The position numbers and the translations under genes are program-made. A DNA stretch of 18,323 nt, taken from IMG/VR virus record IMGVR_UViG_2606217100_000004; one strand, given 5' to 3'. Positions 1 through 18,089 of the stretch are shown in pieces (within the stretch, counting starts at the first letter, position 1; each line of letters opens with the position of its first letter). Source of the DNA: a virus. Its lineage: Duplodnaviria > Heunggongvirae > Uroviricota > Caudoviricetes. The notes under the pieces are model-generated. The model made no database searches. It saw nothing but the letters and a program-made list of their open reading frames with translations, and was not told where the DNA came from.

Positions 1-783
1 ATGAAGATCGTAAAGGCTGAAGTTTTTGTTACCTGTCCGGGGCGTAATTTCGTCACATTAAAAATCACCACTGAGGACGGTATTACGGGCCTTGGGGATG
101 CCACCCTCAATGGACGTGAGCTTTCCGTGGCCTCTTATTTGCAGGATCACCTTTGTCCGCAGCTTATTGGTCGCGATGCGCACCGTATCGAAGATATCTG
201 GCAGTTTTTCTATAAAGGTGCTTACTGGCGTCGCGGTCCGGTTACGATGTCGGCCATTTCAGCGGTTGATATGGCGCTGTGGGATATTAAAGCCAAAGCT
301 GCCAACATGCCGCTTTACCAGTTACTCGGCGGCGCGTCTCGTGAAGGGGTGATGGTTTATTGCCATACCACCGGTCACAGTATTGATGAAGCTCTGGATG
401 ATTATGCCCGTCATCAGGAGCTGGGATTCAAAGCCATCCGCGTGCAGTGCGGAATCCCTGGTATGAAAACCACCTACGGCATGTCGAAAGGTAAAGGTCT
501 GGCTTATGAACCCGCAACCAAAGGACAGTGGCCGGAAGAGCAGCTGTGGTCGACGGAGAAATACCTCGATTTCATGCCGAAATTGTTTGACGCGGTACGT
601 AACAAGTTTGGTTTTAATGAACATTTGCTGCATGACATGCACCATCGCTTAACGCCTATTGAAGCGGCGCGCTTTGGTAAAAGCATTGAAGATTATCGCA
701 TGTTCTGGATGGAAGACCCGACGCCTGCAGAAAACCAGGAATGCTTCCGTCTCATTCGCCAACATAGCGGAACTGTTTGCTGA
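1..783 (+). CDS. rspA: Starvation-sensing protein RspA (enolase-superfamily D-mannonate dehydratase family), 5' portion only; frame ends prematurely at a junction with prophage DNA
   Basis: ORF starts at nt 1 ([30 protein letters not shown]...), which I recognise as RspA. Full-length proteins of this family are about 400 aa; here the frame stops after 260 aa and the last residues (SGTVC) look junction-derived. Confidence 0.8.
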
Positions 784-847
784 GAACACCGTGCGGTGTC
801 TTGATGGAAAGTAATTTAGAATAACCTAACACGAGAGGCAAGTGTTT

Positions 848-867
848 TTGTTAGATTTGTCTAACAA
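848..867. promoter_or_regulatory. Perfect 8-4-8 palindrome TTGTTAGA-tttg-TCTAACAA, candidate DicA-type operator downstream of dicA
   Basis: Read directly from the sequence. The same half-sites recur at 1360-1377 in the dicA-dicC intergenic region. Confidence 0.5.
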
Positions 868-902
868 AAAGGGTGGGCGCAACTAATCACTTGAAAAGAA
901 TG

Positions 903-1310
903 TTATTTTATTGATTTATTTTTACGCGCTTTAAGCATTTCTTCGAAGAGTTTGTTGAAGTTTTCTACTCTTGAGCGCATTTCAGACAGTAAGGCTTCCT
1001 GCTCGGAAGATGGAAGAGCATCGAATAATTCGATCAATTCTTTGTGGTTGGGAGTTAGCTCTGTTTCCACATGTAGTTCTTGTGCAGGCACTGGTGCCTT
1101 GTCTTCGTCACCAAACATTAGCCATGTAGGTGAGCACTTCAGAGCATCCGCTAAAGCAAACAATCGTTTTCCGACTGGCTGGGTTTCGTCTCTTTCCCAT
1201 TGTGAAATTGTGACGTGAGCAACTCCAGCGAGGCGCGCAGCTTCTCGTTGTGTTAAGCGTAATTCTTTTCGTCGCGCCAGAACTCGCTGGCCTAGGGTTC
1301 TTGTATCCAT
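903..1310 (-). CDS. dicA: DicA-like HTH (XRE-family) prophage repressor
   Basis: 135-aa ORF with an N-terminal HTH (LRLTQREAARLAGVAHVTISQWERDETQP) and a C-terminus (VENFNKLFEEMLKARK) closely resembling K-12 DicA as I recall it. Divergent from a Cro-like gene. Confidence 0.8.
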   Translation of the reverse strand: MDTRTLGQRVLARRKELRLTQREAARLAGVAHVTISQWERDETQPVGKRLFALADALKCSPTWLMFGDEDKAPVPAQELHVETELTPNHKELIELFDALPSSEQEALLSEMRSRVENFNKLFEEMLKARKNKSIK

Positions 1311-1332
1311 AGTTAGGTAATTCTAATTTTTC

Positions 1333-1377
1333 TTGACTTAGGTATCCCGCGCACAATAATGTTAGAAAAGTCTAACA
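1333..1377 (+). promoter_or_regulatory. Candidate dicC promoter (-35 TTGACT 1333-1338, 17-bp spacer, -10 ATAATG 1356-1361) overlapped by a palindromic operator TGTTAGA-aaag-TCTAACA (1360-1377)
   Basis: Near-consensus sigma70 hexamers with 17-bp spacing seen directly. The palindrome shares its half-sites with 848-867. Confidence 0.5.
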
Positions 1378-1387
1378 ATAGGGGGCT

Positions 1388-1618
1388 TTGATGCTTAAAG
1401 TTGACGCAATTACTTTTTTTGGCAGCAAAACAAAGCTTGCCAATGCCGCAGGAGTGAGGCTGGCAAGTGTTGCTGCTTGGGGGATACTGGTTCCTGAAGG
1501 TCGCGCGATGCGTCTACAGGAGGCATCTGGCGGGGAGCTTCAGTATGATCCCAAAGTTTATGACGAATATCGTAAGACGAAGCGGGCGGGGCGGTTGAAC
1601 AATGAAAATCACTCCTGA
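1388..1618 (+). CDS. dicC: DicC-like (Cro-type) small regulator
   Basis: 76-aa ORF divergent from dicA. The C-terminal half (LVPEGRAMRLQEASGGELQYDPKVYDEY) matches my recollection of DicC. Confidence 0.75.
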   Translation: MMLKVDAITFFGSKTKLANAAGVRLASVAAWGILVPEGRAMRLQEASGGELQYDPKVYDEYRKTKRAGRLNNENHS

Positions 1619-2123
1619 ACAGGCTCGTGAGGCTCTGGATGCCTGGATATGTCGACCAGGAATGACACAGGAGCAGGCGACGATATTAATCACTGAAGCA
1701 TTCTGGGCTTTGAAAGAGCGCCCGAACATCGATGTTCAGCGTGTCACAGATGAAGGTGGCGCGGTTGATCAGCGAGCACTTGGCGTTAATCGAGTGAAGA
1801 TATTCGAACGCTGGAAGGCTATCGACACCAGGGATAAGCGTGAAAAGTTCACGGCGCTAGTGCCTGCAATTATGGAGGCTATCCGGATTAATGATTTCAG
1901 GTTGTATCGTGAAATTAGTGACGGAAAAAGCATCACGTACATGATCGCCGGGTTAAACAAAGAATATGGCGATGTGGTGGAGTCCGGACTGCTTTTTGCT
2001 GATCCTGCCGTAGTGGATCGTGAAACTGACGAACTTATAGAAAAAGCAATTGCTTTCAAACTTGCGTATCGACAGCAATACCAACAAAAAGCTGGATGGA
2101 ATTATGAGCCTTCTTTTTGCTGA
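1602..2123 (+). CDS. Hypothetical prophage early-region protein (possibly YdaT-like)
   Basis: 173-aa ORF whose start overlaps the dicC stop, in the position of a cII or YdaT-type gene. Family assignment is not verified. Confidence 0.5.
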   Translation: MKITPEQAREALDAWICRPGMTQEQATILITEAFWALKERPNIDVQRVTDEGGAVDQRALGVNRVKIFERWKAIDTRDKREKFTALVPAIMEAIRINDFRLYREISDGKSITYMIAGLNKEYGDVVESGLLFADPAVVDRETDELIEKAIAFKLAYRQQYQQKAGWNYEPSFC

Positions 2124-3069
2124 ACGCCCACTGGTTATAAACACACAGCTTGCGATGAAGATTGGCTTAAATGAAGCCATTGTGTTGCAGCAGTTGCATT
2201 ACTGGTTGAGAGATACCAATTCCGGCATGGAATGTGATGGTGTTCGCTGGATTTACAACACAACGGAACAATGGCTGGAACAGTTCCCATTCTGGTCAGA
2301 GTCAACGTTAAAGCGCGCGTTTGCAAGTCTGAAAACGCTGGGGCTTTTGCGTTGTGAAAAGCTCAATAAATCAAAGCGCGATATGACCAATTTCTACACG
2401 ATTAACTATGGGAGCGAGCTTTTAGATGATGGCAAATTGAGCGAATCCATCGGTTCAAAATGCGCCGCTCCATCAGGTCAAAATGACACGATGGAAGAGG
2501 TCAAAATGAAACGCTCCATTGGTTCAAAACGACCCAATGTCATCGGGTCAAAATGGCCCGATGATCCTACAGAGAATACAACAGAGATTACTACAGAGAA
2601 TAAAAACACTTTTCGTCCGGAAGCTTCGCAACCGGACCCGCAGACGGCTGAACAGGATTTTTTAATCCGGCACCCTGGCGCAGTTGTGTTTAGTGCGAAA
2701 AAACGCCAGTGGGGTAGCCAGGAGGATCTGGCGTGTGCGCAGTGGATATGGTGGCGGATCGTGGGTCTCTACGAACAGGCCGCCAGTGATGATGGCGAGA
2801 TCATGCGACCAAAAGAGCCTAACTGGACTGTCTGGGCCAATGATGTGCGCACAATGCGGATGCTGGATGGCAGAAGCCACAGACAAATTTGTGAAATGTT
2901 TGGTCGGGTACAGCGGGATCCATTCTGGGTAAAAAACATCATGAGCCCGTCAAAGCTCCGCGAAAAATGGGACGAACTGGTCATCCGCCTGGGGCGTTCA
3001 CCTGTACAGCGTTGTGTTAATCATATTTCTGAACCGGATACAGAAATTCCGCCTGGTTTCAGAGGATAA
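2104..3069 (+). CDS. Phage replication initiator (O-like replisome organiser with an iteron-encoding linker and a DnaT-like C-terminal region)
   Basis: ATG at 2104 is preferred over TTG at 2050 because it overlaps the upstream stop by only 20 nt. The N-terminal winged-HTH-like region resembles phage replication organisers, and the gene body contains five iteron-like repeats. Confidence 0.65.
   Translation: MSLLFAERPLVINTQLAMKIGLNEAIVLQQLHYWLRDTNSGMECDGVRWIYNTTEQWLEQFPFWSESTLKRAFASLKTLGLLRCEKLNKSKRDMTNFYTINYGSELLDDGKLSESIGSKCAAPSGQNDTMEEVKMKRSIGSKRPNVIGSKWPDDPTENTTEITTENKNTFRPEASQPDPQTAEQDFLIRHPGAVVFSAKKRQWGSQEDLACAQWIWWRIVGLYEQAASDDGEIMRPKEPNWTVWANDVRTMRMLDGRSHRQICEMFGRVQRDPFWVKNIMSPSKLREKWDELVIRLGRSPVQRCVNHISEPDTEIPPGFRG
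2445..2608. repeat. Candidate prophage origin of replication: five iterons (core GGTYCAAAAYG) at about 23-bp spacing, followed by short ACAGAGA direct repeats
   Basis: Iteron cores at 2452-2462, 2476-2485, 2499-2508, 2521-2531 and 2546-2555, each preceded by TCCATYRG-like sequence. ACAGAGAATA/ACAGAGATTA repeats lie at 2568-2608. The layout matches lambda-type ori inside the O gene. Confidence 0.6.
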
Positions 3070-3109
3070 GTTTTGATTTCAGGTCATGAGGTAATTTTAA
3101 GGGGGACTT

Positions 3110-3511
3110 GTGGCAAAAGTTTTTACACAAGAAGAGCGGGAAAAAATTAAAGGGCAGGTGGTGGAACTCGTGCGCCAGAGCGGTCGTGAGACGTTACGGC
3201 AACTGGAAGCTAAAACAGGTGCGACTAGATATCTGATGAGCGTTCTTGCCAGAGAGCTGGTAGCCAGTGGCGATGTATACAACTCCGGCTACGGGTTATT
3301 CCCGTCTGAACAGGCGCGTAAGGACTGGCAAAACGCCCGCAAAAAACTCTCGAGGGCAAAGGTGAAGAAAACAGCTGTGGTTGATCCGGACCTTATCTGG
3401 TCGTTACCTGATGGAGAAATACGTCGCTACGACAGTCGCCTAAACATAATCTGTCGCGAGTGCCGGATGAGTGAAGTTATGCAGCGCATACTGGCATTTT
3501 ATCAGGGATAA
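3110..3511 (+). CDS. Hypothetical prophage protein with a possible HTH
   Basis: 133-aa ORF with a GTG start at 3110 and a strong SD (AAGGGGGAC) upstream. Composition matches the phage backbone, not the AT-rich retron. Confidence 0.5.
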   Translation: MAKVFTQEEREKIKGQVVELVRQSGRETLRQLEAKTGATRYLMSVLARELVASGDVYNSGYGLFPSEQARKDWQNARKKLSRAKVKKTAVVDPDLIWSLPDGEIRRYDSRLNIICRECRMSEVMQRILAFYQG

Positions 3512-3778
3512 TGTTAGGTATTTTAGACGTTACTAGATTAAAAAGCATTAGTTCAGGAGTGAATTGACATTCTCATTTTTCATGGCACAGGGTAGATCTG
3601 GCGTGGTTGTCCGCTTTGTGCCAGAGGCGGACGTTGTTAAAATAGAAAATATCCCAACCTTGTATGAGTCGTGCAATAATTTCGAACTTTATACAAAGCT
3701 TTGGTTGTAAAGGTGTATAACCACAAGTGACATTAATCACATTTGTAAAGGCAAAATGCAACAAACTGAATTAGTTAA

Positions 3779-3806
3779 TTGCGTAAATTTGAAGTTATGT
3801 TAAGGT
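3779..3806 (+). promoter_or_regulatory. Candidate retron promoter (-35 TTGCGT 3779-3784, 16-bp spacer, -10 TAAGGT 3801-3806)
   Basis: The hexamers place a transcription start at about 3813, coinciding with the first base of the a1 inverted repeat. Motif-level evidence only. Confidence 0.3.
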
Positions 3807-3812
3807 GGTGAT

Positions 3813-3945
3813 GGTTTATGGGCAGATTTTGGGTCGCGTTTCGCGATCAGTGAAAAAAATGTCCGATAGGATTGCCTTTCAGGATCTCATGTTCCTCGCA
3901 TTTCTTAAGGTTCTTGTCAAGTTTGCGTAAGAGTGCCCATAAACC
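3813..3945 (+). ncRNA. Candidate retron msr-msd (template for msDNA), bounded by a1/a2 inverted repeats
   Basis: Perfect 12-nt inverted repeat: GGTTTATGGGCA (3813-3824) and TGCCCATAAACC (3934-3945). A G follows a1 at 3825 (candidate branching G), and a2 ends 19 nt before the RT start codon. The 133-nt span is a plausible size for an msr-msd. Exact ends are not determined. Confidence 0.45.
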
Positions 3946-3964
3946 CTTTTAGAGGCGATCTAAA

Positions 3965-5800
3965 GTGAAACGACTACAATCATTAAAAGAAGCAAAAACA
4001 AAACCAGACTTGGCTAAGCTATTAGGAATCAAACCTTCAGCGTTAACATACTGCCTATATGTATTAAAACCTGAAAATCAATACACACAGTTTAAGATAC
4101 CAAAAAAAAATGGCGGCGAACGGATAATAAGTGCACCTAACGGAATATTAAAGACGATACAGTCATCCTTATCAGGACTGCTTCTAGATTGCTTAGACGA
4201 AATAGTTTGCATTAAGTTTCCAGACTCAGAGTTAGCAAGGCAGAAAGCAAAAAACTCAAAAATATTAAAGTTAAAATGTTCCAACTCAGAAATCAAACAA
4301 CCCTCACTGTCTCATGGATTTGAAAGAAAGCGTTCAATTATTACAAATGCAATGATGCATTTGGGGAAAAAATATGTTTTTAATATAGACTTGGATAATT
4401 TTTTCGGCAGTTTTAACTTTGGTAGAGTCCGAGGTTTTTTCATAAAAAATAGAAACTTTGCACTCGATCCGGAAATCGCAACTGTAATTGCTAAAATTGC
4501 GTGCTACAACAATGAACTACCCCAAGGCAGCCCATGCTCCCCAGTAATCACTAATCTAATCATTCACTCGTTAGACATTAAACTGGCAGCGATTGCATCA
4601 AGAAACTCATCCACTTTTACAAGATATGCTGATGATATTACATTCTCTACGAGGAAGGGGGCGTTTCCTTCTGCTATAGCAAAAAATCAAAATGGTAAAT
4701 ATATCGTTAGTAAGAAAATTAGGGGCGAGATAACTCGCTCAGGTTTTATAATTAATGATGGGAAGACAAGAAATCAGTATAAAGACTCGAGGCAAGATGT
4801 AACAGGCTTAGTGGTTAATAAAAAGCCAAACACGAAAAAAGAATATTGGAGGCTTGTGCGTGCGCAATGTGACCATTTATTTAAACATGGTGAGTTCTTA
4901 GAGGTGATTGACGGCAAGGAAATAAAGGGGAATGTTAATAGCCTTGCAGGCAAACTTAACTTCATAGACCAAGTTGACCACTATAATAGATTGCGTCAAG
5001 GCGAAAAATTAAATCCAAAATATCACTTAAAAAAAGATGCCAATAAAAATGGCCATGCCAAAAAAAGGCGTTACTTGCATAGTTCTAGAGAAAAAACGTT
5101 TAGTGAGTTTCTCTTCTATCGTTTATTTTATGGCAATGAATTACCAACAATTCTTACGGAAGGTAAAACTGACAATATTTATCTGAAGGCAGCAATACAT
5201 AAGTTAGCCTCATCATTCCCTAATTTGGCGGTAGCTGAAAGTCCAGGGCTCTCTTATAAGCCACGGACTAAATTTGTTAACTACAATGAGCGGACAAAAT
5301 ATTTACTTGAACTTTATGGTGGCGCTGATTATTTAAAGGATTTTGTTATTCATTATAAACAACACTTTAATCGTTATAAGGCTCCCAAACCATCTAATCC
5401 AGTAATTATACTTGTTGATAATGATAGCGGACCAAAAGATCTGATTAATTACGTTAGTAAAGTTGATAATATTGGTATTTTCCCCACAGGTGTTCCAGAT
5501 ATCCGCGCCTCTGAGTTTGTACATATTTTTTGTAATCTTTATTTAGTGCTTACCCCTCAAGTTAAGGGATATACAGGAACTGATATAGAGCATTTTTTTA
5601 AAGATGCAGATCGACTTAGACCACATAAAGGTAAGTTTTTCAATACAGTCTCTAAGCGTGATCATGATAATGATTTGAGCAAGGAATCTTTCGCAACTCA
5701 TATTGTTCATGCCCACAAGCATGAAATTGATTTTAGTGGATTTACAAGCCTGTTAGAACGGTTAGTAAAAGTCATAAATCACTTTGACACTGTTAAGTAA
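3965..5800 (+). CDS. Retron-type reverse transcriptase fused to a C-terminal TOPRIM-like domain (Retron-Eco2/Ec67-like)
   Basis: 611-aa ORF with a GTG start. RT motifs appear in order: NAMMH (NAxxH), NIDLDNFF, LPQGSPCSP, YADD (nt 4625-4636), VTGLVVN (VTG). The C-terminal part has TEGKTD (E codon 5159-5161) and VDNDSG (DxD), the TOPRIM E...DxD signature. The gene is strongly AT-rich compared with its flanks. Confidence 0.85.
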   Translation: MKRLQSLKEAKTKPDLAKLLGIKPSALTYCLYVLKPENQYTQFKIPKKNGGERIISAPNGILKTIQSSLSGLLLDCLDEIVCIKFPDSELARQKAKNSKILKLKCSNSEIKQPSLSHGFERKRSIITNAMMHLGKKYVFNIDLDNFFGSFNFGRVRGFFIKNRNFALDPEIATVIAKIACYNNELPQGSPCSPVITNLIIHSLDIKLAAIASRNSSTFTRYADDITFSTRKGAFPSAIAKNQNGKYIVSKKIRGEITRSGFIINDGKTRNQYKDSRQDVTGLVVNKKPNTKKEYWRLVRAQCDHLFKHGEFLEVIDGKEIKGNVNSLAGKLNFIDQVDHYNRLRQGEKLNPKYHLKKDANKNGHAKKRRYLHSSREKTFSEFLFYRLFYGNELPTILTEGKTDNIYLKAAIHKLASSFPNLAVAESPGLSYKPRTKFVNYNERTKYLLELYGGADYLKDFVIHYKQHFNRYKAPKPSNPVIILVDNDSGPKDLINYVSKVDNIGIFPTGVPDIRASEFVHIFCNLYLVLTPQVKGYTGTDIEHFFKDADRLRPHKGKFFNTVSKRDHDNDLSKESFATHIVHAHKHEIDFSGFTSLLERLVKVINHFDTVK

Positions 5801-6361
5801 TATTATGATGCGCACTGATTATTCCTTATTCAGCTAAAATTTCTACTGTAGTCCCAACTTCCGTTCCTCGCTCAAAGCGGACTAAAAGGTTAGCTTGTGT
5901 CGGACTTTGCGTATTAAAAGAAGTGCTGGTGGTGACTAGTGGTTGAGCCCCATTTCCACAGAAAAAATCAGAGAAACTATACCCAATAGTTGTATTGAAT
6001 CACTGACGAGACAGCCTCATATTCATCAGGACTGGTGTACGTCCAATACAGGAGGTTGTGGTGCTGGTTCTCAAATGTGCGCTGGCTATTACGGCTGTAA
6101 TGGCGATTTATTGTCTTGCTATTGTTCTTATGGATCGCCTTTCTGACTGATTTCATATTGGCGAGGTAACGGTAGTTAAGTAGAATGGCTGCGGGTGCTT
6201 GAGGCTATCTGCCTCGGGCATGAACACCAAAGGCAGATAGAGAAAAGCCCCAGTTAACATTACGCGTCCTGCAAGACGCTTAACATTAATCTGAGGCCAA
6301 TTTCATGCTAGACACATGTAGGTTAGCCTCTTACGTGCCGGAAGGCAAGGAGAAGCAGGCT

Positions 6362-6517
6362 ATGAAGCAGCAAAAGGCGATGTTAATCGCCCTGATCGTC
6401 ATCTGTTTAACCGTCATAGTGACGGCACTGGTAACGAGGAAAGACCTCTGCGAGGTACGAATCCGAACCGGCCAGACGGAGGTCGCTGTCTTCACAGCTT
6501 ACGAACCTGAGGAGTAA
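6362..6517 (+). CDS. hokD: Hok-family membrane toxin (HokD/RelF-like); in-frame upstream extension from 6305
   Basis: MKQQKAMLIALIVICLTVIVTALVTRKDLCEVRIRTGQTEVAVFTAYEPEE: a 51-aa single-TM Hok peptide with an AGGAGA SD upstream. A 3' fold-back hairpin and a terminator follow. Confidence 0.85.
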   Translation: MKQQKAMLIALIVICLTVIVTALVTRKDLCEVRIRTGQTEVAVFTAYEPEE

Positions 6518-10481: not shown

Positions 10482-10703
10482 GGTAATATTAAATCGGAAC
10501 ATTTACATCGCGGAATGTAAAATTTAAATAAAAAGGACTCTTCCATGAGCCAAAATTCCTGAAATCTTAAGGGTAAGATAAAAGGTCTTAATCAGAATGA
10601 CACGTTTTATTAATAAATAAAGCTATTCTTTCATTGCTGTGTTTTTCTTTACAAAAGTAATCCTTGCTATGGGTGGTTAATCATGCGTTAATGGTGTTCT
10701 GGT

Positions 10704-10740
10704 TTGTTACAAATTTATCTGAAGCAGTCATTGTTATAAT
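10704..10740 (+). promoter_or_regulatory. Candidate cspI promoter with extended -10 (TGtTATAAT at 10732-10740) and a roughly 100-nt AT-rich leader
   Basis: TGnTATAAT motif seen directly. A long AT-rich 5' UTR is typical of CspA-family cold-shock genes. Confidence 0.3.
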
Positions 10741-10843
10741 TTTATTATTTGTACCTCTTGAGATTTCCTTGTTGGTTTTTCTCTCTGATATTTTTTTTCG
10801 GACCATTCTGCCCAAGGGCTAATTTCTTCAAAAGGTAATAATT

Positions 10844-11056
10844 ATGTCTAACAAAATGACTGGTTTAGTGAAATGGTTTAACCCTGAAAAAGGTTTTGGT
10901 TTCATCACGCCGAAAGATGGCAGCAAAGATGTGTTTGTCCATTTCTCAGCAATTCAGAGCAACGATTTCAAAACATTAACTGAGAATCAGGAAGTTGAAT
11001 TTGGTATTGAGAACGGACCTAAAGGTCCTGCCGCTGTTCATGTAGTGGCGCTTTGA
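10844..11056 (+). CDS. cspI: CspA-family cold-shock protein
   Basis: 70 aa, [23 protein letters not shown]...VHFSAI: RNP1/RNP2 cold-shock domain motifs. Confidence 0.9.
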
Positions 11057-11260
11057 GGTAGACAATATTACAAACCATATTCACTTTAGATGCCCGTGTT
11101 GTCATGGTTCCCAGTATAGAACATCATCTTTTGATGTTTCTGACATGAATCCTTTCGGGGCAAAATGTATCTTTTGTAAATCAATGATGATTACATTTGA
11201 TAATATTTCACAATACTTAAATGCCAGCCGTCTGTCGTTGGATTTAAAAAAGTGAAAATG

Positions 11261-11958: not shown

Positions 11959-12017
11959 TTTGAATGGTTCCGAATATCTAAATCACAATTGTTGATGGTT
12001 TTTATTAAACCAATGCA

Positions 12018-12046
12018 GTCCGGCTCAGGAGTGAGAGAAGCCGGAC
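12018..12046 (-). terminator. Candidate hairpin terminator downstream of ydfO
   Basis: 8-bp stem GTCCGGCT/AGCCGGAC, 9 nt past the ydfO stop; the U-tract on the minus strand is weak. Confidence 0.3.
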
Positions 12047-12054
12047 GTTATGGT

Positions 12055-12465
12055 TTAGCGTGGTAAGATCTGTGTAGTTTTCTGGATGCTTTCAGTAAAT
12101 AGTAATGAGTTATCAAAGGCATAGTAATATCTTTGGTGTTCCTGGATATTTGTAACCCATCGGAAAACTCCTGCTTTAGCAAGATTTTCCCTGTATTGTT
12201 GAAATGTGATTTCTTTTGATTTCAACTTATTATAGGAGGTCTCTATAAGATGTTTGTTTCTGGAGAATTTAACATTTACAACCTTTTTGAGTCCTTTTAC
12301 TAACACTATGTTGTCGTTTTCTAACACAATGTGAATATTATCTGTGGCTAAATAGTAAATATAAAGTGAGACATTGTGACGTTTTAGCTCAGAATAAAAT
12401 AATTCACAGTTTAAATCTTTACGCACTTGATCGAATATTTCTTTAAAAATGGCAGCCTGAGCCAT
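12055..12465 (-). CDS. ydfO: DUF1398-family prophage protein (YdfO-like)
   Basis: Start chosen at the internal Met ([17 protein letters not shown]...). [13 protein letters not shown] and [30 protein letters not shown] resemble YdfO as I recall it. Confidence 0.7.
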
Positions 12466-12765
12466 TGGTAAACCTTCCATGTGATACGATGGCGCGTAGT
12501 TAGCATTATCGTGTTTATTGTTTCAATCTGGTCTGACCTCTTTGTGTTTTGTTGATGATTTATGTCAAATATTAAGCCTGTTTTTGATGAATAGTGTTGA
12601 TTGCGTAACAAAATTGAGCCTTGCTGGCATCCAGGAGGGATATGCAACCGACAGATGTATGTAAGGTCGATGTACTCAAACTTTCATACTTTTCCTCTTT
12701 TATGCAGTAAGATTTGAAGTAATATTTTAACCGCTAGATGACGAGCAAACGCATGGAGCGACAAA

Positions 12766-12972
12766 ATGAATAAAGAACAATCTGCTGATGAACTCTCGTT
12801 GGATCTGATTCGTGTAAAAAATATGCTTAATAGCACCATTTCTATGAGTTACCCGGATGTTGTAATTGCATGTATAGAACATCAGGTGTCTCTGGAAGCA
12901 TTCAGGGCAATTGAGGCAGCGTTGGTGAAGCACGATAAGAATTCGAAGGATTATTCCCTGGTGGTTGACTGA
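12766..12972 (+). CDS. Hypothetical small protein
   Basis: 68-aa ORF with a GGAGCG SD 6 nt upstream, divergent from ydfO. Confidence 0.45.
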
Positions 12973-13296
12973 GCACCATAACTGCTAATCATTCAAACTA
13001 TTTCACCTGTGACAGAGTCAATATCGCATTCTGTCACTGTCAGGCTAATACAGAGCTGCAATTCAACTACTGCAATGTCCTCGTAATTAGGTGAATTTAC
13101 AATATCGTCCTGTTCGGATGCCGGTTGCATTGCTGAAGATGAGGCATTTATGGTTCGCATATTTTCCCCTCATGCTCGTCAGTCCTGTGCGTAGGAAGAA
13201 ACAGGACACTCACACTAATTTGTGTGGGCATGCTGTGATGTCCTTCTGAATTATTCCTATGCCATTATGTAAAGCGCTGTATCAGATGCTCATCAC

Positions 13297-13320
13297 GGCT
13301 GTCAGGCTGTCAGGCTGTCG
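13297..13320. repeat. Three tandem copies of an 8-mer (GGCTGTCA x2, GGCTGTCG) leading into a GC-rich tract
   Basis: Read directly from the sequence. Confidence 0.5.
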
Positions 13321-13542
13321 GGTCCTCCCGGTGGGGGCCCCTGCCACGGGGCGGGAGCGTCGCGGAAAAAGGCTAGTTTTTGCATTTCCATGGCGGCGGC
13401 AGCATGTTTGGTAATTTATTGATAATTAAAAGTTATTTCTCTTTTTACCTGTACAATATTTTTTTCTCCCTGTCATTAGACCAGTTTACAATTAATTGAA
13501 ATATATAAATAAACATGATTTTCACCTGCCAGATGGAGTTGC

Positions 13543-14221
13543 TTATGTCAAATGTGAGCGGGATCGGTGATGCTTATTACGACCACCTGCACGTACCCAG
13601 TCTGATTCTGTCGCCGCTCCACCACGAATCTGAATTTTCCAGGCCTCAGCCTCCTTAACAGGGTCAATCCACGGCATCACCGGTCCGGAATACACCGCGG
13701 TATACAGTGAAGAACGATCAAGATCGCGGGGTAGCCTGATAACACCGGATGCCACAGCCTGTTTCAGCCAGGCACGATACATCGGGCGGGTGACGGCACC
13801 AATAAACCAGTCCTGCAGGATCAGGTAGCCATCAGTGGATTCAACCAGCTCCTGACGCTGGGCGCTGTAAGTGCCGTTATAGTTGCGTGCCGTACTGGAA
13901 AAACTCAGACGACTGCCCGCCGCCACGGCACGCAACTGACCATTACGAAAAGTTTCAAGGTTAGGATTGGGACGATCCGACTTCACCATTCCGATTTCTT
14001 CGCCGGGTTTCAGATCGTCGTAAATAATGCCTGGCTGAATGGTAAGCTCGCGTTCATTCTCCTTGCTGCCATTACCATCCGGTTCATAGCTCTGCCCGTC
14101 GCCTTTCCGGATGTACATCCCCAGAGCAGCGGCGATCCTTGCTGCAGTCAGCTCAGAATCTTCATACTCTTTCAGGGCACTGAGGCGGATCAGCACACCG
14201 GACAACAAAGACGTCCCGCGC
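13543..14221 (-). pseudogene. Lambda-family portal protein (gpB-like) internal/C-terminal fragment
   Basis: The minus-strand frame (…RAVAAGSRLSFSSTARNYNGTYS…WLKQAVASGVIRLP…PWIDPVKEAEAW…) resembles the C-terminal part of lambda gpB as I recall it. The first 38 codons of the track ORF are an out-of-frame read of the V fragment. Confidence 0.45.
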
Positions 14222-14908
14222 ATCTGGTGCAAGGGCGATGCGTTTGCGAACCCTTTATCGGACACTGACTGGCTGCGTCTTGCGATGGTGAAGGATCTGC
14301 AACCTGGCGAAATGACCGCTGATGCAGAAGATGACACTTATCTCGATGATGAAGATGCAGACTGGAAAACGACAACCCAGGGGCAGAAATCCGTCGGTGA
14401 TACTTCGGCGACGCTGGCCTGGCGTCCGGGTGACAGCGGGCAGAAAAAACTGGTTCAGTTGTTCGACTCCGGTGAAGTCTGCGCGTTTCGTATCAAATAT
14501 CCCAACGGCACTGTTGATGTTTTCCGTGGCTGGCTGAGCTCACTGGGTAAAACCATTGCCTCAAAAGACGTGATGACCCGCACAGTGAAAATCAGCGGTG
14601 TGGGGCGTCCGTATCTGGCAGAGGAAGGCACTGAAACAGTGAGCGTTACCGGGCTGACGGTGGCACCGGCATCTGCCAGTGTAAAAGTGGGAGCAACCAC
14701 CACGCTGACCTTTACAGTAAAACCTGACGGAGCCAGTGACAAAGCGATCAGTGTGCATTCGACAGATCCACAGACTGCCACGGTGACCCTGAACGGGCTT
14801 GTGGCCACGGTGAAAGGCGTGAAGCAGGGCAGTGTCAGCATTGTGGGCATGACTTCTGACGGCGATTTTGTGGCAGTGGCTGCGGTGGCTGTCAGCGCCG
14901 CAGGTTAA
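14222..14908 (+). pseudogene. Lambda gpV-like major tail protein, N-terminally truncated
   Basis: ANPLSDTDWLRLAMVKDLQPGEMTA…YLDDEDADW…PNGTVDVFRGW…Ig-like C-terminus closely matches lambda V from about residue 20 onward. No V-like start codon or N-terminus is present. Confidence 0.75.
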
Positions 14909-14910
14909 CA

Positions 14911-15667
14911 GGACGATACTCATCATTTGCCCCGGTTAGTGCCGCTTCCTCGGCAACGGCGGCAGGCAATTCCGCGAAGGCGGCAAAGACGTCTGAGACA
15001 AACGCCAGGTCTTCTGAAACGGCAGCGGAACAGAGTGCCTCAGCTGCGGCAGGCTCAAAAACAGCGGCTGCGTCGTCTGCCAGTGCAGCGTCAACAAGTG
15101 CCGGGCAGGCCTCAGCCAGTGCTAGCGCCGCCGGAAAATCGGCAGAAAGCGCCGCATCGTCCGCTTCAACAGCCACAACGAAGGCTGGCGAAGCCACTGA
15201 ACAGGCCAGCGCAGCAGCGAGGTCTGCTTCCGCAGCGAAGACATCCGAAACGAACGCGAAAGCGTCGGAAACCAACGCAGAATCCTCAAAAACGGCTGCC
15301 GCATCGTCCGCCAGTTCGGCGGCGTCATCGGCATCATCGGCGTCTGCTTCAAAAGATGAGGCGACCAGACAGGCGTCAGCAGCGAGGGGCAGCGCCACGA
15401 CGGCATCCACGAAGGCGACAGAGGCTGCTGGCAGTGCGGCAGCGGCAGCACAGAGCAAAAGTACGGCAGAATCCGCAGCAACGCGCGCTGAGACAGCGGC
15501 AAAACGGGCAGAGGATATTGCATCCGCCGTGGCGCTTGAGGATGCGAGCACGACGAAAAAGGGGATAGTACAGCTCAGCAGTGCGACTAACAGCACTTCC
15601 GAGTCACTGGCGGCAACGCCAAAAGCCGTTAAGGCCGCGTATGACCTGGCTATACGAGGTGTATAAC
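14911..15667 (+). pseudogene. Side tail fibre (Stf) Ala/Ser-rich segment, no start codon, open from the V stop, ending in a frameshift
   Basis: A frame without ATG reads …KTSETNA…SASAAS…[34 protein letters not shown], then stops at 15665-15667. The tail-fibre sequence continues in another frame. Confidence 0.55.
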
Positions 15668-16510
15668 AACGGATATCCAACAGCGTATGGAAATATCATT
15701 CACCTGAAAGGGATGACAGCCGTTGGCGAAGGTGAGTTACTCATCGGCTGGAGTGGTACAAGCGGTGCTCATGCTCCGGCATTTATTCGTTCACGACGGG
15801 ATACGACCGGCGCAAACTGGTCGCCGTGGGCGCAGCTTTACACCTCGGCTCATCCTCCTGCAGAGTTTTATCCAGTCGGTGCACCAATCCCGTGGCCATC
15901 AGATACCGTTCCGTCTGGTTATGCCCTGATGCAGGGGCAGACTTTTGACAAATCTGCTTACCCGAAACTTGCAGCCGCTTATCCGTCAGGCGTGATCCCT
16001 GATATGCGTGGCTGGACGATTAAGGGCAAGCCCGCCAGTGATCGAGCCGTATTGTCTCAGGAACAGGACGGCATTAAATCACACACCCACAGCGCCAGCG
16101 TATCCAGTACGGATTTGGGGACGAAAACCACATCGTCGTTTGATTACGGCACTAAATCCACGAATAACACTGGTGCGCATACCCATAGTGTTAGCGGTAC
16201 GGCTGCTTCAGCCGGTGCACATACCCATTCGATGACATTTGTTTCAGGTGGTTCCAGTGGTGCTCCGGGAAGTGGATCACCTGATTATTCTAAATACAGT
16301 GTTAACACTTCTTCTGCAGGCGCTCATACGCACTCTGTATCGGGTACTGCTGCAAGCGCAGGTGCACACGCACATACTGTCGGTATTGGTGCTCATACGC
16401 ACTCCGTTGCGATTGGTTCACATGGACATACCATCACCGTTAACGCTGCTGGTAACGCGGAAAACACCGTCAAAAACATCGCATTTAACTATATTGTGAG
16501 GCTTGCATAA
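15581..16510 (+). CDS. stfQ: Side tail fibre C-terminal portion (StfQ-like); true start uncertain
   Basis: Contains PIPWPSD…[10 protein letters not shown]…repeated GAHTHS/GAHAHT…[31 protein letters not shown], a typical lambdoid tail-fibre distal domain. The first roughly 20 codons of the track ORF are probably out-of-frame junk. Confidence 0.65.
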
Positions 16511-17085
16511 TGGCATTCAGAATGAGTGAACAACCACGGACCATAAAAATTTATAATCTGCTGGCCGGAACTAATGAATTTATTGGTGAAGGTGACGCAT
16601 ATATTCCGCCTCATACAGGTCTGCCAGCAAACAGTATCGATATTGCACCGCCAGATATTCCGGCAGGCTTCGTGGCTGTTTTCAACAGTGATGAGGCATC
16701 GTGGCATCTCGTTGAAGATCATCGGGGTAAAACGGTTTATGACGTGGCTTCCGGCGACGCGTTATTTATTTCTGAACTCGGTCCGTTACCGGAAAATGTT
16801 ACCTGGTTATCGCCGGGAGGGGAATATCAGAAGTGGAACGGCACAGCCTGGGTGAAGGATACGGAAGCAGAAAAACTGTTCCGGATCCGGGAGGCGGAAG
16901 AAACAAAAAACAGCCTGATGCAGGTAGCCAGTGAGCATATTGCGCCGCTTCAGGATGCTGCAGATCTGGAAATTGCAACGGAGGAAGAAATCTCGTTGCT
17001 GGAAGCATGGAAAAAGTATCGGGTATTGCTGAACCGTGTTGATACGTCAACTGCACAGGATATTGAATGGCCAGCACTGCCGTAG
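16510..17085 (+). CDS. tfaQ: Tail fibre assembly protein (Tfa)
   Basis: 191 aa; ATG overlaps the stf stop (ATAATGG), and the product resembles Tfa chaperones (…[14 protein letters not shown]…EWPALP). Confidence 0.8.
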
Positions 17086-17182
17086 GGTAAAACATATAAA
17101 TTCTATAATTAGATGTATCTTTCCATTTACGGCAAGGAAGGTGGCTTGGAAGACGTAAAGCATCTCACACCGAGATTATTTT

Positions 17183-17773
17183 TTATATGTCAGGTGTCTG
17201 AAGTTTTGCTTTGGCTCTTAAAATGGTTTGCCGCGAGGTTTTGAATTCCCGGGCAATGGCACTTATACTTACACCTGACTTAATTCGTTCGAATACCACC
17301 TGTTTCTGTTCTTCATTTAACACTGGTGGTCGACCAAAACGTTTCCCTGCGCCCCGGGCTCTTACTATCCCGGAATGAGTGCGTTCAAGTAAAAGGTCTC
17401 GTTCAAATTCAGCGACTGCTGAAATTACTTGCATCATCATTTTTCCTGTTGGACTGGTCAGGTCAATGCCCCCCAATGCTAAGCAATGCACTCTGATACC
17501 TGTTTCGGTCAGTTGTTCCACTGTTTTCCTGATATCCATTGCATTACAACCAAGGCGATCCAGTTTTGTCACAATCAATTGATCACCACATTTCAGGCGA
17601 GCAAGCAACCGGTTAAAACCAGGACGCTCACTGGTTGCTGCTGAGCCGCTAATGTGTTCTTCGATTATTTGCTGAGGTTTGATTTTAAAACCTGCACTTT
17701 CGATTTCCCGGCGTTGATTTTCGGTGGTCTGATCCAGCGTTGATATCCGACAGTAAGCAAAAATTCGAGACAT
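17183..17773 (-). CDS. pinQ: Serine recombinase / DNA invertase (Pin/Gin/Hin family)
   Basis: 196 aa: [15 protein letters not shown] (catalytic Ser motif), resolvase core, and a C-terminal HTH ([17 protein letters not shown]). Confidence 0.9.
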
Positions 17774-18089
17774 AGTGAGACTCTATACGAAATTGGTGTT
17801 CATATCATAATGCATCTCAGAAAATAATTTTGATTATTTTTGTGCATATTTGTATGTACACGTTCGAAAATAAACGAATGCGTATGCAACCCCGTAATTT
17901 TGGTGAGACCCAAAATCGATTTTGTGAAAAATGGCTTTAACTCGGTTTGTTTTTCGAGTTCCGGGCGGACTCAAGGAAGAAGAATAGTGTTGCGTGTTAT
18001 TTTAACCAGATTTCAAGTTGTTTGGTCGTGGAAAAGTGGAGCAAAATGTTGTTAAAGTGGAAAAATGATAAAAAAGTAAGTTTATTATA

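What the first reader, a model, noticed from the sequence alone, without database searches (positions are those of the whole stretch)
2445..2608. Iteron array inside the replication initiator gene (candidate ori)
Five copies of a roughly 18-bp unit (TCCATYRGGTYCAAAAYG) at about 23-bp spacing lie inside the coding sequence of the O-like protein, producing repeated SIGSK/VIGSK peptides. Short ACAGAGA direct repeats follow. This is the lambda-type arrangement, where the origin lies within the O gene and is bound by the O N-terminal domain.
Basis: partly seen in the sequence, partly recalled or inferred. Interest (0 to 1): 0.5.

Follow-up and report, generated by a model that had tools for sequence, protein, structure and literature searches.

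The report
Replication origin inside phage initiator gene
Five evenly spaced 23-base repeats followed by three 12-base repeats in the middle of a prophage replication-initiator gene are very probably the phage's origin of replication, a known kind of arrangement (phage lambda, staphylococcal RepA_N plasmids), and the same layout, with a nearly invariant 12-base motif, turns up in phages of very different bacteria.

Summary
Window 2448-2563 holds five head-to-tail 23-bp units (spacing 23, 23, 23, 24). Each is an imperfect palindrome, CATCrGGTCA-AAA-TGrCCyGATG. Three 12-bp CAGAGAnTAC repeats follow (2570-2605), then a short inverted repeat (2615-2637). All lie in the linker of gene 2104-3069.

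The lambda-type reading is supported by comparison, not by experiment.
- The units are read in three frames, so they are DNA repeats, not peptide repeats.
- Third-codon variation among close relatives collapses there (4/55 against 102/229 sites).
- 62 of 81 homologous loci, from Enterobacterales to Firmicutes, carry the same array after the same N-terminal domain.
- The residue aligned with S67, in the predicted recognition helix, fully predicts the base flanking the invariant CAA (58 arrays; 40/41 in a second set).

The 12-mers are constrained at the DNA level: 138/138 Thr-Glu pairs are ACA-GAG. They also accompany unrelated iterons in other phages.

Verdict: a known kind of origin in a new variant. 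The window's prophage is defective.

The parts
2104..3069 (+). Replication initiator gene (321 aa): N-terminal winged-helix domain, origin-encoded linker, lambda-O-like C-terminal domain, DnaT-like tail
   Evidence: PHROG 391 'replication initiation O-like', E 2.6e-92. The same CDS is annotated in phage HannyBb at 97.4% DNA identity. RefSeq names it 'phage O protein family'.
2104..2424 (+). Coding region of the N-terminal DNA-binding domain (aa 1-107), a RepA_N/DnaD-NTD-like winged helix; the recognition helix is aa 66-78
2425..2447 (.). Possible sixth, degenerate iteron (GATGATGGCAAATTGAGCGAATC)
   Evidence: Family D2. Relatives L094, L098 and L100 have a good sixth unit at this position.
2448..2470 (.). 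Iteron 1: CATCGGTTCAAAATGCGCCGCTC
   Evidence: the repeat finder D1; core hit at 2453-2462
2471..2493 (.). Iteron 2: CATCAGGTCAAAATGACACGATG (good dyad)
   Evidence: the repeat finder D1; core hit at 2476-2485
2494..2516 (.). Iteron 3: GAAGAGGTCAAAATGAAACGCTC (outer arms degenerate)
   Evidence: the repeat finder D1; core hit at 2499-2508
2517..2539 (.). Iteron 4: CATTGGTTCAAAACGACCCAATG (good dyad)
   Evidence: the repeat finder D1; core hit at 2522-2531
2541..2563 (.). Iteron 5: CATCGGGTCAAAATGGCCCGATG (best dyad, 10/11 complementary)
   Evidence: the repeat finder D1 and inverted repeat I7; core hit at 2546-2555
2570..2605 (+). Three 12-bp repeats: CAGAGAATACAA, CAGAGATTACTA, CAGAGAATAAAA. 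Purine-rich on the coding strand. Proposed DNA-unwinding / helicase-loading element
   Evidence: TRF and D3. The motif is unique in the window. The least stable 40-bp window of the gene starts at 2574. GC is 0.37. The constraint is at the DNA level: 138/138 ACA-GAG, and 11-bp spacing in other loci.
2615..2637 (.). Short inverted repeat GTCCGG-N11-CCGGAC, at the position of the palindrome that ends ori-lambda
   Evidence: Read. An inverted repeat with perfect arms of at least 6 bp follows the 12-mers in 67% of 52 related loci against 11% of shuffles, with covarying arms. Lambda comparison.
2671..2985 (+). Coding region of the C-terminal domain homologous to the lambda O C-terminal domain
   Evidence: BLASTP against lambda O: aa 147-294 align with 135-270, 34% identity, E 8e-27
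3007..3066 (+). C-terminal tail QRCVNHISEPDTEIPPGFRG, near-identical to the last 20 residues of E. coli DnaT
   Evidence: phmmer against PDB (2ru8, 6aep, 9zbt), E 2e-4, 15/20 residues identical. NCBIfam DnaT positions 160-179. The tail is found only in Enterobacterales members.

Best explanation
Window 2425-2637 is most likely the replication origin of a lambdoid (now defective) prophage. It is embedded in the linker-coding part of the phage's own initiator gene.

Proposed mechanism, with each step marked as shown or inferred:
1. The initiator is made from the rightward early operon (cro-like, YdaT/cII-like, initiator). The gene order is shown; that these genes form one operon is inferred.
2. 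Dimers of its N-terminal winged-helix domain bind the five or six dyad-symmetric 23-bp iterons. The recognition helix reads each half-site, and residue 67 reads the base next to the invariant CAA. This is inferred from covariation and fold. The even 23-bp spacing would place the dimers in a regular array that bends or wraps the DNA, like the lambda O-some or the RepA_N-Rep box complex. This is inferred by analogy.
3. The adjacent block of three CAGAGAnTAC 12-mers is the least stable and most strand-asymmetric part of the gene, and it starts at a fixed 15-18 nt from the last iteron centre. It is proposed to be the site that is opened. Its sequence is under DNA-level selection (shown). What reads it is unknown.
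4. The lambda-O-like C-terminal domain and the DnaT-like C-terminal tail are proposed to recruit the host helicase-loading machinery directly. No phage P-, DnaC- or helicase-type gene is present (shown for the window and for viable relatives). The recruitment route is inferred.

The N-domain, iterons and 12-mers travel together as one exchangeable specificity module. The C-terminal domain is swapped between relatives (shown).
For: Repeat reality and uniqueness.

The repeat is at the DNA level, not the peptide level.
- The 23-bp period puts the same unit in three frames.
- Among 47 distinct close variants of the gene, variable third-codon sites number 3/40 in the array and 1/15 in the 12-mers. 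In the N and C domains they number 39/107 and 63/122. Fisher p = 5e-8.

Conservation of the layout.
- Of 81 homologous loci from GTDB genomes, 66 have at least 3 units spaced 22-24 bp right after the N-domain.
- 62 of these have a CA...TG centre flanked by complementary arms.
- 54 are followed by 2-5 CAGAGAnTAC repeats.

Link between protein and site.
- The residue aligned with S67 determines half-site base -4: S gives T in 22 arrays, D gives G in 18, K/R gives A in 9, N/H gives C in 3, and A/P/M/E gives T in 6.
- MI equals H at 1.67 bits. The permutation maximum is 0.67, and the next-best column reaches 0.50 of H.
- The mapping recurs in many separate 70%-identity clusters.
- The rule predicts 40/41 arrays in an independent IMG/VR set.

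Fold. The N-domain is a winged helix closest to the pSK41/pTZ2162 RepA NTD, which binds iterons.

Proven analogues with the same anatomy.
- Ori-lambda lies in the middle of O (PMC7466680).
- The pSK41 Rep boxes lie centrally within rep. They have a 23-bp period and a GTCAAAAGGAC core, and short AT-rich direct repeats follow them (PMC5703833; PMC7145576).

Other points.
- Dyad symmetry is a half-site property and not base pairing: 411 one-sided deviations against 26 compensated ones.
- The least stable 40-bp window of the gene covers the 12-mers.
- The C-domain is homologous to lambda O.
- Viable phages carry the module at 97% identity with no other replication gene annotated: HannyBb (45-kb record read in full), mEp460_ev081 and PhiR42_1.
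- In Klebsiella phages the DNA similarity stops right after the 12-mers (window 2149-2599), and their C-domain is unrelated.
Against: There is no experimental evidence for binding, unwinding or replication in any member of this protein family that I could find (literature searches).

The window's prophage is a remnant. Its left arm is missing and its head and tail genes are fragmentary. The origin may therefore never fire here.

The N-domain has no detectable sequence similarity to lambda O or to RepA_N. The binding role rests on a predicted fold and on covariation, and phylogeny can partly inflate covariation.

Units 1 and 3 are poor palindromes.

15 of 81 homologous loci showed no array, mainly a Neobacillus/Bacillus group and truncated genes. 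The layout is therefore not universal in the family.

Iteron arrays can also serve in autoregulation or copy control.
Confidence: 0.85

Rival explanations
1. The repeats are a peptide repeat, or low-complexity linker, of the protein. On this reading they have no role as DNA, and the DNA periodicity is a by-product.
For: The region encodes a linker between two folded domains. SIGSK, SIGSK and VIGSK recur. In pSK41 the equivalent protein segment is dispensable (PMC5703833).
Against: The 23-bp period is not a multiple of 3, and the same unit is read as SIGSK, PSGQN and EVKM. Third-codon positions are the most conserved sites here, 4/55 variable against 102/229. All 138 Thr-Glu pairs after the arrays use ACA-GAG. 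In several Firmicute loci the 12-mers are spaced 11 bp apart and read in 2-3 frames.
Confidence: 0.02
2. The array binds the initiator, but its main job is regulatory. It might repress or titrate the initiator, mediate incompatibility or exclusion of related phages, or 'handcuff' copies, while replication starts elsewhere.
For: Iterons in plasmids have both roles (general knowledge; PMC4980987 is listed but was not read). Cloned lambda ori iterons inhibit related phages (PMC3349717 abstract). The prophage here is defective but keeps the array intact.
Against: The array is always coupled, at a fixed 15-18 nt, to the least stable, strand-asymmetric 12-mer block and to an inverted repeat. That is the anatomy of proven origins. 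No second array or second initiator-type gene is present in the window or annotated in HannyBb.
Confidence: 0.07
3. The palindromic units act through nucleic-acid secondary structure. They might form hairpins or cruciforms in single-stranded DNA, or a structured RNA, instead of serving as duplex binding sites for a dimer.
For: Each unit is a palindrome that could fold. Arms differ between loci but remain complementary at the consensus level.
Against: Within arrays, deviations from the consensus are one-sided in 411 cases. Only 26 of 65 double deviations stay complementary, against 21.7 expected by chance. Symmetry is therefore kept per half-site, as expected for a protein dimer. Individual units in the window pair at only 6.4 of 10 positions on average. 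One protein residue predicts the arm base. No Rfam family reaches its gathering score here.
Confidence: 0.02
4. This concerns the 12-mers only. The CAGAGAnTAC block may be conserved as a recombination junction between exchangeable modules and not as a working origin element. On this reading its DNA identity reflects frequent crossover there.
For: DNA similarity between E. coli, Klebsiella and Pantoea phages ends at or is confined to this block. The C-terminal domains are swapped right after it.
Against: The motif is kept from Enterobacterales to Staphylococcus, Lactobacillaceae and Clostridia, where recombination cannot homogenise it. It keeps a fixed distance from the last iteron. It also occurs with remotely related N-domains and unrelated iterons. 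It is the least stable DNA of the gene. Both roles could coexist.
Confidence: 0.1
5. The element is an origin by descent, but in this particular defective prophage it is an inert relic.
For: The left arm of the prophage is absent: a chromosomal gene ends at 783 and the repressor gene starts at 903. The portal and tail-tube genes are fragments.
Against: The initiator ORF is intact. It is 100% identical in about 30 IMG/VR contigs, and window 765-6000 is 99.9-100% identical in 4 complete E. coli genomes. It is 97% identical to viable phages, with the iterons and 12-mers almost unchanged. The repressor and cro-like genes are also intact.
Confidence: 0.1

Closest known systems
Ori-lambda inside gene O of phage lambda (and the Stx-phage variants with six iterons)
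   Same: The origin lies in the middle of the initiator gene, between the DNA-binding N-domain and the C-domain. It has 4-6 dyad-symmetric iterons with an A-tract centre (lambda TCCCTCAAAACGAGGGA) at 20-24-bp spacing. A roughly 40-bp AT-rich, purine-asymmetric stretch follows, then a palindrome (PMC7466680). The C-terminal domain is homologous (34% identity, E 8e-27). The gene sits after cro and cII-like genes and before a ren-position gene.
   Different: The N-terminal domain is unrelated by sequence: no PF04492 hit and hhalign probability 0.06%. The iteron sequence differs. The spacing is a strict 23 bp. The AT-rich part consists of defined CAGAGAnTAC 12-mers. No P gene follows. The protein ends in a DnaT-like tail that lambda O lacks.
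RepA_N plasmid origins (pSK41 / pTZ2162 Rep and their Rep boxes)
   Different: There is no PF06970 or PF18008 hit, and hhalign probability is 0.09%. The C-terminal domain is lambda-O-like and not Bac_RepA_C. The context is a phage, not a plasmid. The repeats after the boxes are CAGAGAnTAC 12-mers, not the 15-bp TGATACTGATTTTAT.
DNA-unwinding elements made of short repeats next to initiator sites (oriC 13-mers and DnaA-trios; RK2 oriV 13-mers)
   Same: This compares how it works, not membership. Two to five short direct repeats of 11-12 bp form an AT-rich, strand-asymmetric block. The block lies at a fixed distance from the last initiator site and is the least stable DNA locally. The comparison with oriC and RK2 is from established knowledge and was not tested here.
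   Different: The motif is different (CAGAGAnTAC). The block lies inside a coding sequence. The reader of the motif is unknown. It is conserved across phyla and across remotely related initiators.
E. coli DnaT (primosomal protein I)
   Same: The last 20 residues are nearly identical, QRCVNHISEPDTEIPPGFRG against [20 protein letters not shown]. Some database records name the phage protein 'Primosomal protein I' for this reason.
   Different: Only the tail matches. The NCBIfam DnaT score is 16 against a cut-off of 201. The DnaT N-terminal domain and three-helix CTD are absent. The function of the tail is not stated in the sections of the preprimosome paper that I read (PMC13377028).

Membership tests
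Lambda O / ori-lambda type | N-terminal DNA-binding domain of the Phage_rep_O family (PF04492) | tested here: not met
   Lambda O hits PF04492 at E 5.7e-36. The window protein has no hit even at E <= 10. hhalign of the N-domain profile against the lambda O N-terminus gives probability 0.06%.
Lambda O / ori-lambda type | C-terminal domain homologous to the lambda O C-terminal (P-interacting) domain | tested here: met
   BLASTP aligns aa 147-294 with 135-270 at 34% identity, E 8e-27.
Lambda O / ori-lambda type | Origin inside the initiator gene: at least 4 dyad-symmetric iterons about two helical turns apart, then an AT-rich stretch, then a palindrome | tested here: met
   for the window; for lambda.
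Lambda O / ori-lambda type | Partner P-type helicase loader gene directly downstream | tested here: not met
   The next gene is DUF977 / 'Ren-like', followed by a retron reverse transcriptase. No loader, helicase or primase is annotated in the whole genome of the 97%-identical phage HannyBb or next to the gene in L002, L004 and L005.
Lambda O / ori-lambda type | Initiator-dependent replication from the cloned segment | not testable with these tools
   This needs the plasmid-replication assay described under next steps.
RepA_N initiators and their intragenic origins | RepA_N domain by sequence (PF06970) | tested here: not met
   No hit at E <= 10. pSK41 Rep hits at E 2.5e-32. hhalign probability is 0.09%.
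RepA_N initiators and their intragenic origins | Winged-helix NTD with the RepA_N / DnaD-NTD fold | tested here: met
RepA_N initiators and their intragenic origins | Semi-palindromic iterons converging on a poly-A tract, located centrally within the rep gene | tested here: met
   The definition comes from PMC7145576 and PMC5703833. The pSK41 boxes read directly show the same 23-bp period and the GTCAAAAGGAC core.
RepA_N initiators and their intragenic origins | Genus-specific C-terminal domain of the Bac_RepA_C type on a theta plasmid | tested here: not met
   The C-domain is lambda-O-like with no PF18008 hit. The element is a lambdoid prophage.
Iteron-type origin (general) | Cognate initiator recognises the repeats | tested here: inconclusive
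   The test was in silico only. Residue 67 predicts base -4 in 58/58 and 40/41 arrays. Arm sequences are more alike within an array (0.63) than between arrays (0.49). Direct binding was not tested.
DnaT (primosomal protein I) | Full-length similarity to DnaT (NCBIfam PRK02854) | tested here: not met
   The score is 16.2 against a cut-off of 201. Only model positions 160-179 match.

The most novel reading that the evidence does not exclude
The CAGAGAnTAC 11-12-bp repeats may be more than an AT-rich spacer. On this reading they are a sequence-specific, strand-asymmetric opening or helicase-loading element. It would be shared by a large superfamily of phage winged-helix initiators from Proteobacteria to Firmicutes, making it the phage counterpart of the oriC 13-mers or DnaA-trios.

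Their reader would be either a conserved surface of these initiators or a factor common to all bacteria. An R-loop formed by the purine-rich transcript is another possibility.

The module around them has three parts: n iterons of 23 bp, the 12-mers, and an inverted repeat. It carries a one-residue/one-base recognition code (residue 67 and base -4). That code would let origin specificity be predicted and re-engineered.
Probability: 0.4. Interest if true: 0.7.

Novelty: new variant of a known kind. Interest (0 to 1): 0.5.

Why it matters
For this window, the result gives a concrete, testable origin for a group of E. coli, Klebsiella and Pantoea lambdoid phages and prophages. None of the feature tables I read, which covered this region in four relatives (a fifth record carries no annotation), lists an origin. 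The protein is named inconsistently there: 'O-like', 'primosomal protein I', 'transcriptional regulator' or 'hypothetical'.

More broadly, three points came out of the comparison.
- The lambda paradigm and the RepA_N plasmid paradigm are joined in one protein. It has a RepA_N-like DNA-binding module with pSK41-like 23-bp iterons, fused to a lambda-O-like C-domain.
- A single residue of the recognition helix tracks a single iteron base across phyla. This is a simple handle for predicting incompatibility or immunity of replication modules and for building orthogonal replicons.
- A nearly invariant 12-mer lies next to very different iterons. It offers a defined substrate for asking how phage initiators open DNA and load the host helicase without a loader of their own. 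The DnaT-like tail points to the restart primosome as one candidate route.

An intact initiator and origin in a non-excisable prophage is also a potential source of replicative killing or local amplification. Here that amplification would include the adjacent retron.

Tried and rejected
- **Pfam and NCBIfam on the initiator.** They gave no domain, only a weak DnaT tail hit.
- **Sequence search of PDB with the whole protein.** It returned only the DnaT tail and a spurious YteR match.
- **hhalign of the N-domain profile** against the lambda O N-terminus and the pSK41 RepA NTD. Neither showed sequence-level similarity.
- **Rfam on the window.** Nothing was found at the locus, and there was no retron RNA family.
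- **Literature searches.** I searched for the motif strings (GTCAAAATGAC, ACAGAGAATAC, CAGAGACTAC, TENTTE and others) and for descriptions of such origins. Hits were only primers or unrelated text, and no description of this family's origin turned up. Weigel & Seitz 2006 and Weaver et al. 2009 are not held, so earlier mention there cannot be excluded.
- **First attempt to centre iterons by fixed-period cutting.** It failed where spacing varies and was replaced by a motif-based unit finder.
- **The first search pattern, GGTYCAAAAYG.** It was too strict and found 3 hits, no better than chance. It was replaced by GKTCAAAAYG.
- **The viral-contig scan with the protein alignment.** It returned only relatives at 96% identity or more. 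These were useful for the synonymous-site test but not for diversity.
- **The role of the DnaT tail.** The sections of the preprimosome paper that I read do not describe the last 20 residues. PMC4132743 had no hit for the search terms used.
- **Rejected readings.** These are the peptide repeat, the hairpin or RNA structure, and the DnaA-box or IHF-site reading of the 12-mers. The last has no resemblance by eye and was not scanned formally.
Full report
**1. What is in the sequence**

Gene 2104-3069 (+) encodes a 321-aa protein. Inside it, the repeat finder and TRF report five head-to-tail 23-bp units at 2448, 2471, 2494, 2517 and 2541, with spacing 23, 23, 23, 24. Each unit is an imperfect palindrome, CATCrGGTCA-AAA-TGrCCyGATG. 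Unit 5 is complementary at 10 of 11 arm positions (I7).

The core GKTCAAAAYG occurs five times in the 18.3-kb window, only here, against 0.24 expected. Identity at lag 23 is 45/70, which is the window-wide maximum (0.67) against 0.57 at most in 200 shuffles. A TRF score this high for a long period appeared in 1 of 300 shuffled windows. A weaker sixth unit may lie at 2425-2447.

Three 12-bp repeats follow: CAGAGAATACAA, CAGAGATTACTA and CAGAGAATAAAA at 2570-2605. Their motif is also unique in the window. After them comes GTCCGG-N11-CCGGAC at 2615-2637.

The unit is a 23-bp dyad and not an 18-mer. Only units 1, 4 and 5 give xIGSK, because units 2 and 3 are read in the other two frames as PSGQN and EEVKM.

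**2. Context**

The gene order is as follows:
- cI-like repressor (903-1310, minus strand)
- cro-like (1388-1618)
- YdaT/cII-like (1602-2123)
- the initiator (PHROG 391 'replication initiation O-like', E 3e-92)
- DUF977 / 'Ren-like' (3110-3511)
- a retron-Ec67-family reverse transcriptase (3965-5800)

Further right lie DUF968/HNH, a Q antiterminator, lysis genes, a cold-shock gene, fragments of portal and tail-tube genes, tail-fibre genes and an invertase. To the left, a chromosomal enolase-superfamily gene ends at 783. This is a lambdoid prophage that has lost its left arm and most morphogenesis genes.

The replication module itself is 97% identical to that of the deposited phage genomes HannyBb, mEp460_ev081 and PhiR42_1. 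The whole HannyBb genome has no other replication gene annotated.

**3. The repeats are DNA elements, not peptide repeats**

A 23-bp period puts successive copies in different frames.

Among 47 distinct close variants of the gene, third-codon positions vary at 39/107 sites in the N-domain and 63/122 in the C-domain. They vary at only 3/40 in the array and 1/15 in the 12-mers (Fisher p = 5e-8).

Across 51 diverged loci, every one of 138 Thr-Glu pairs after the arrays is written ACA-GAG. Elsewhere in the same genes ACA is used 208/969 times and GAG 519/1176 times. In several Firmicute and other loci the first two 12-mers are 11 bp apart, so copies are read in two or three frames.

**4. The layout is a family trait**

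I searched one genome per GTDB species with an alignment of four diverged homologues and obtained 80 loci. They span Enterobacterales, Pseudomonas, Acinetobacter, Photobacterium, Staphylococcus, Lactobacillaceae, Bacillaceae and Clostridia.

- In 66 of 81 loci (window included), at least three units spaced 22-24 bp start right after the conserved N-domain.
- In 62 of these the unit has a CA...TG centre (mostly CAAAATG, CAAATTG or CAATTTG) flanked by complementary arms.
- In 54, 2-5 CAGAGAnTAC repeats begin 15-18 nt after the centre of the last unit. The spacing is 12 bp in 98 cases and 11 bp in 7.
- An inverted repeat with covarying arms follows in 67% of distinct loci against 11% of shuffles. 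Arm pairs include GGTTGC/GCAACC, GGTTTC/GAAACC, GGTTCC/GGAACC and GGCTCA/TGAGCC.

The loci without arrays are mainly truncated genes and a Neobacillus/Bacillus group.

**5. Link between the N-terminal domain and the repeats**

The N-domain model (pLDDT 86.6) is a winged helix. The recognition helix spans residues 66-78 and is followed by a beta wing.

Across 58 distinct arrays, the residue aligned with S67 determines the half-site base next to the invariant CAA:
- S gives T (22 arrays)
- D gives G (18)
- K/R gives A (9)
- N/H gives C (3)
- A/P/M/E gives T (6)

The mutual information equals the full entropy of the base (1.67 bits). The best of 5000 permutations gave 0.67, and the next-best alignment column reaches only half. 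Each main pairing recurs in several separate 70%-identity clusters. In an independent set of IMG/VR arrays the rule was right 40 times out of 41.

Arm sequences are more alike within an array (0.63) than between arrays (0.49).

Deviations from the consensus are overwhelmingly one-sided, 411 cases. Only 26 of 65 double deviations are compensated, against 21.7 expected. This fits a dimer reading two half-sites. It does not fit hairpin pairing.

This is the strongest evidence available without an experiment that the N-domain reads the repeats.

**6. Comparison with lambda**

Ori-lambda lies in the middle of O. It has four dyad iterons (TCCCTCAAAACGAGGGA) spaced 20-24 bp apart, a purine-asymmetric AT-rich stretch and a palindrome (PMC7466680). 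The window shows the same order.

The 12-mers are the least stable 40 bp of the gene, with dG -44.6 against a mean of -55.0 and sd 3.5. GC there is 0.37.

The C-terminal half of the protein is homologous to lambda O (34% identity, E 8e-27). The N-domain is not: it has no PF04492 hit and hhalign probability is 0.06%. No P-like gene follows.

**7. Comparison with RepA_N plasmids**

In pSK41 the NTD binds four Rep boxes located centrally within rep. The central protein segment is a dispensable linker encoded by the origin, and the CTD is host-specific (PMC5703833). RepA_N iterons are described as semi-palindromic repeats whose inverted repeats converge on a poly-A tract (PMC7145576).

Reading pSK41 directly, the boxes form a 23-bp-period array, GAAATGTCAAAAGGACACGTCTA x 3.8. 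The core GTGTCAAAAGGACAC compares with GGGTCAAAATGACCC here. Fifteen-bp AT-rich direct repeats follow.

By sequence the window protein is not a RepA_N member. The DNA-binding half of the system therefore works like, and looks like, a RepA_N origin, while the C-terminal half is lambda-like.

In Klebsiella phages the DNA similarity to the window covers exactly the N-domain, iterons and 12-mers (window 2149-2599). It then stops, and the C-domain is unrelated. These three parts thus behave as one exchangeable specificity module.

**8. The 12-mers reach beyond this family**

- 112 hits lie inside an ORF of at least 90 upstream codons in the Thr-Glu frame.
- 58 distinct upstream regions have the window-type N-domain and 49 do not.
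- Of those 49, 39 still have at least 2.8 tandem units directly upstream, with a 23-bp period in 33. Their iteron sequences are quite different, for example CCCGCAAACAGGTTTGCAGGAAA and GACCCTCCCAATTTCAAAAGGGG.
- One such group is a remote homologue of the window's N-domain (hhalign probability 90%, E 1.5e-6).
- None has a lambda-O-type N-domain.

The 12-mer is therefore not read by the variable recognition helix. It goes with a broad winged-helix initiator superfamily, or with something common to all hosts. What reads it remains open.

**9. How helicase loading might occur (inferred)**

The protein ends in QRCVNHISEPDTEIPPGFRG. This matches 15 of the last 20 residues of E. coli DnaT. The tail occurs on members with different C-domains, but only in Enterobacterales.

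With no loader gene in the phage, I propose that the C-domain and tail engage host primosome or helicase-loading proteins. I could not find what the DnaT tail binds.

**10. Verdict**

The finding is real and its interpretation is supported. It is an intragenic iteron origin of a known kind, in a variant that joins RepA_N-like recognition to a lambda-O-like effector domain. Its unwinding block is a defined and widely conserved 12-mer.

Nothing is experimentally shown, and the prophage in this window is defective. I found no published description of this family's origin in the searchable literature. Two key reviews could not be read (for one of them).

Noticed in passing
window 3965-5800 (+), with 3511-3965 upstream: A retron Ec67-family reverse transcriptase/endonuclease (NCBIfam NF038237, 739 bits) sits right after the replication module. 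At this position phage HannyBb has a methyltransferase fragment and a hypothetical gene. No Rfam family for the retron RNA reached threshold. The 450-bp gap upstream of the reverse transcriptase is the likely place for the msr/msd RNA.
   Followed up: partly
window 3007-3066 (aa 302-321 of the initiator): The C-terminal tail is nearly identical to the last 20 residues of host DnaT. It is present on initiators with different C-domains, but only in Enterobacterales (about 26 of 79 complete homologues by eye). These phages have no helicase-loader gene. This looks like molecular mimicry of a restart-primosome protein.
   Followed up: partly
window 1-903 and 12000-17800: The prophage is a remnant. 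A chromosomal enolase-superfamily gene ends 120 bp from the repressor gene, so int/xis/recombination genes are absent. The portal (13543-14337, minus strand) and tail-tube (14111-14908) ORFs overlap as fragments. Tail-fibre, tail-fibre assembly and DNA invertase genes remain.
   Followed up: partly
window 6193-6367 (+): Rfam sok antitoxin RNA (117 bits), implying a hok/sok-type toxin-antitoxin locus. HannyBb annotates a MokW-like host-killing protein at the matching place.
   Followed up: no
window 10698-11083 (+), 10844-11056 (+): A cspA-type thermoregulator 5' UTR (Rfam, 113 bits) and a cold-shock protein gene lie inside the prophage late region.
   Followed up: no
window 16853-17051 (+): Rfam IS009 small RNA (221 bits) overlaps the 3' part of the tail-fibre assembly gene (16510-17085).
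   Followed up: no
L003/L005/L092/L101/L104/L106 etc., 10-45 nt after the 12-mers; window 2615-2637: The inverted repeat after the 12-mers changes by compensatory substitutions between relatives: GGTTGC/GCAACC, GGTTTC/GAAACC, GGTTCC/GGAACC and GGCTCA/TGAGCC. It occupies the position of the palindrome at the right end of ori-lambda. Its role is unknown; it could be a second protein site or a hairpin in the opened strand.
   Followed up: partly
L169 and L215 (IMG/VR contigs): Some initiators that carry the 23-bp array and the CAGAGA 12-mers have an HNH endonuclease domain inserted between the winged-helix domain and the origin-encoded linker. The Pfam hit (PF01844, aa 156-205) was obtained for L169; for L215 the insertion was seen only by reading the sequence.
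   Followed up: no
L086 and L089 (GTDB genome contigs): Contigs labelled as Bacillota and Veillonella parvula MAGs carry this E. coli prophage module at 98-100% identity. This is most likely binning contamination and not host range.
   Followed up: no
L288 (pSK41) 13703-13815: Right after the four pSK41 Rep boxes come 15-bp (TGATACTGATTTTAT), 9-bp and 21-bp AT-rich direct repeats. This is a possible plasmid counterpart of the phage 12-mer block.
   Followed up: no
window 12291-12332 and 13297-13319: Two other small tandem repeats reported by TRF: 21 bp x 2.0 and GGCTGTCA x 2.9. Neither was examined.
   Followed up: no
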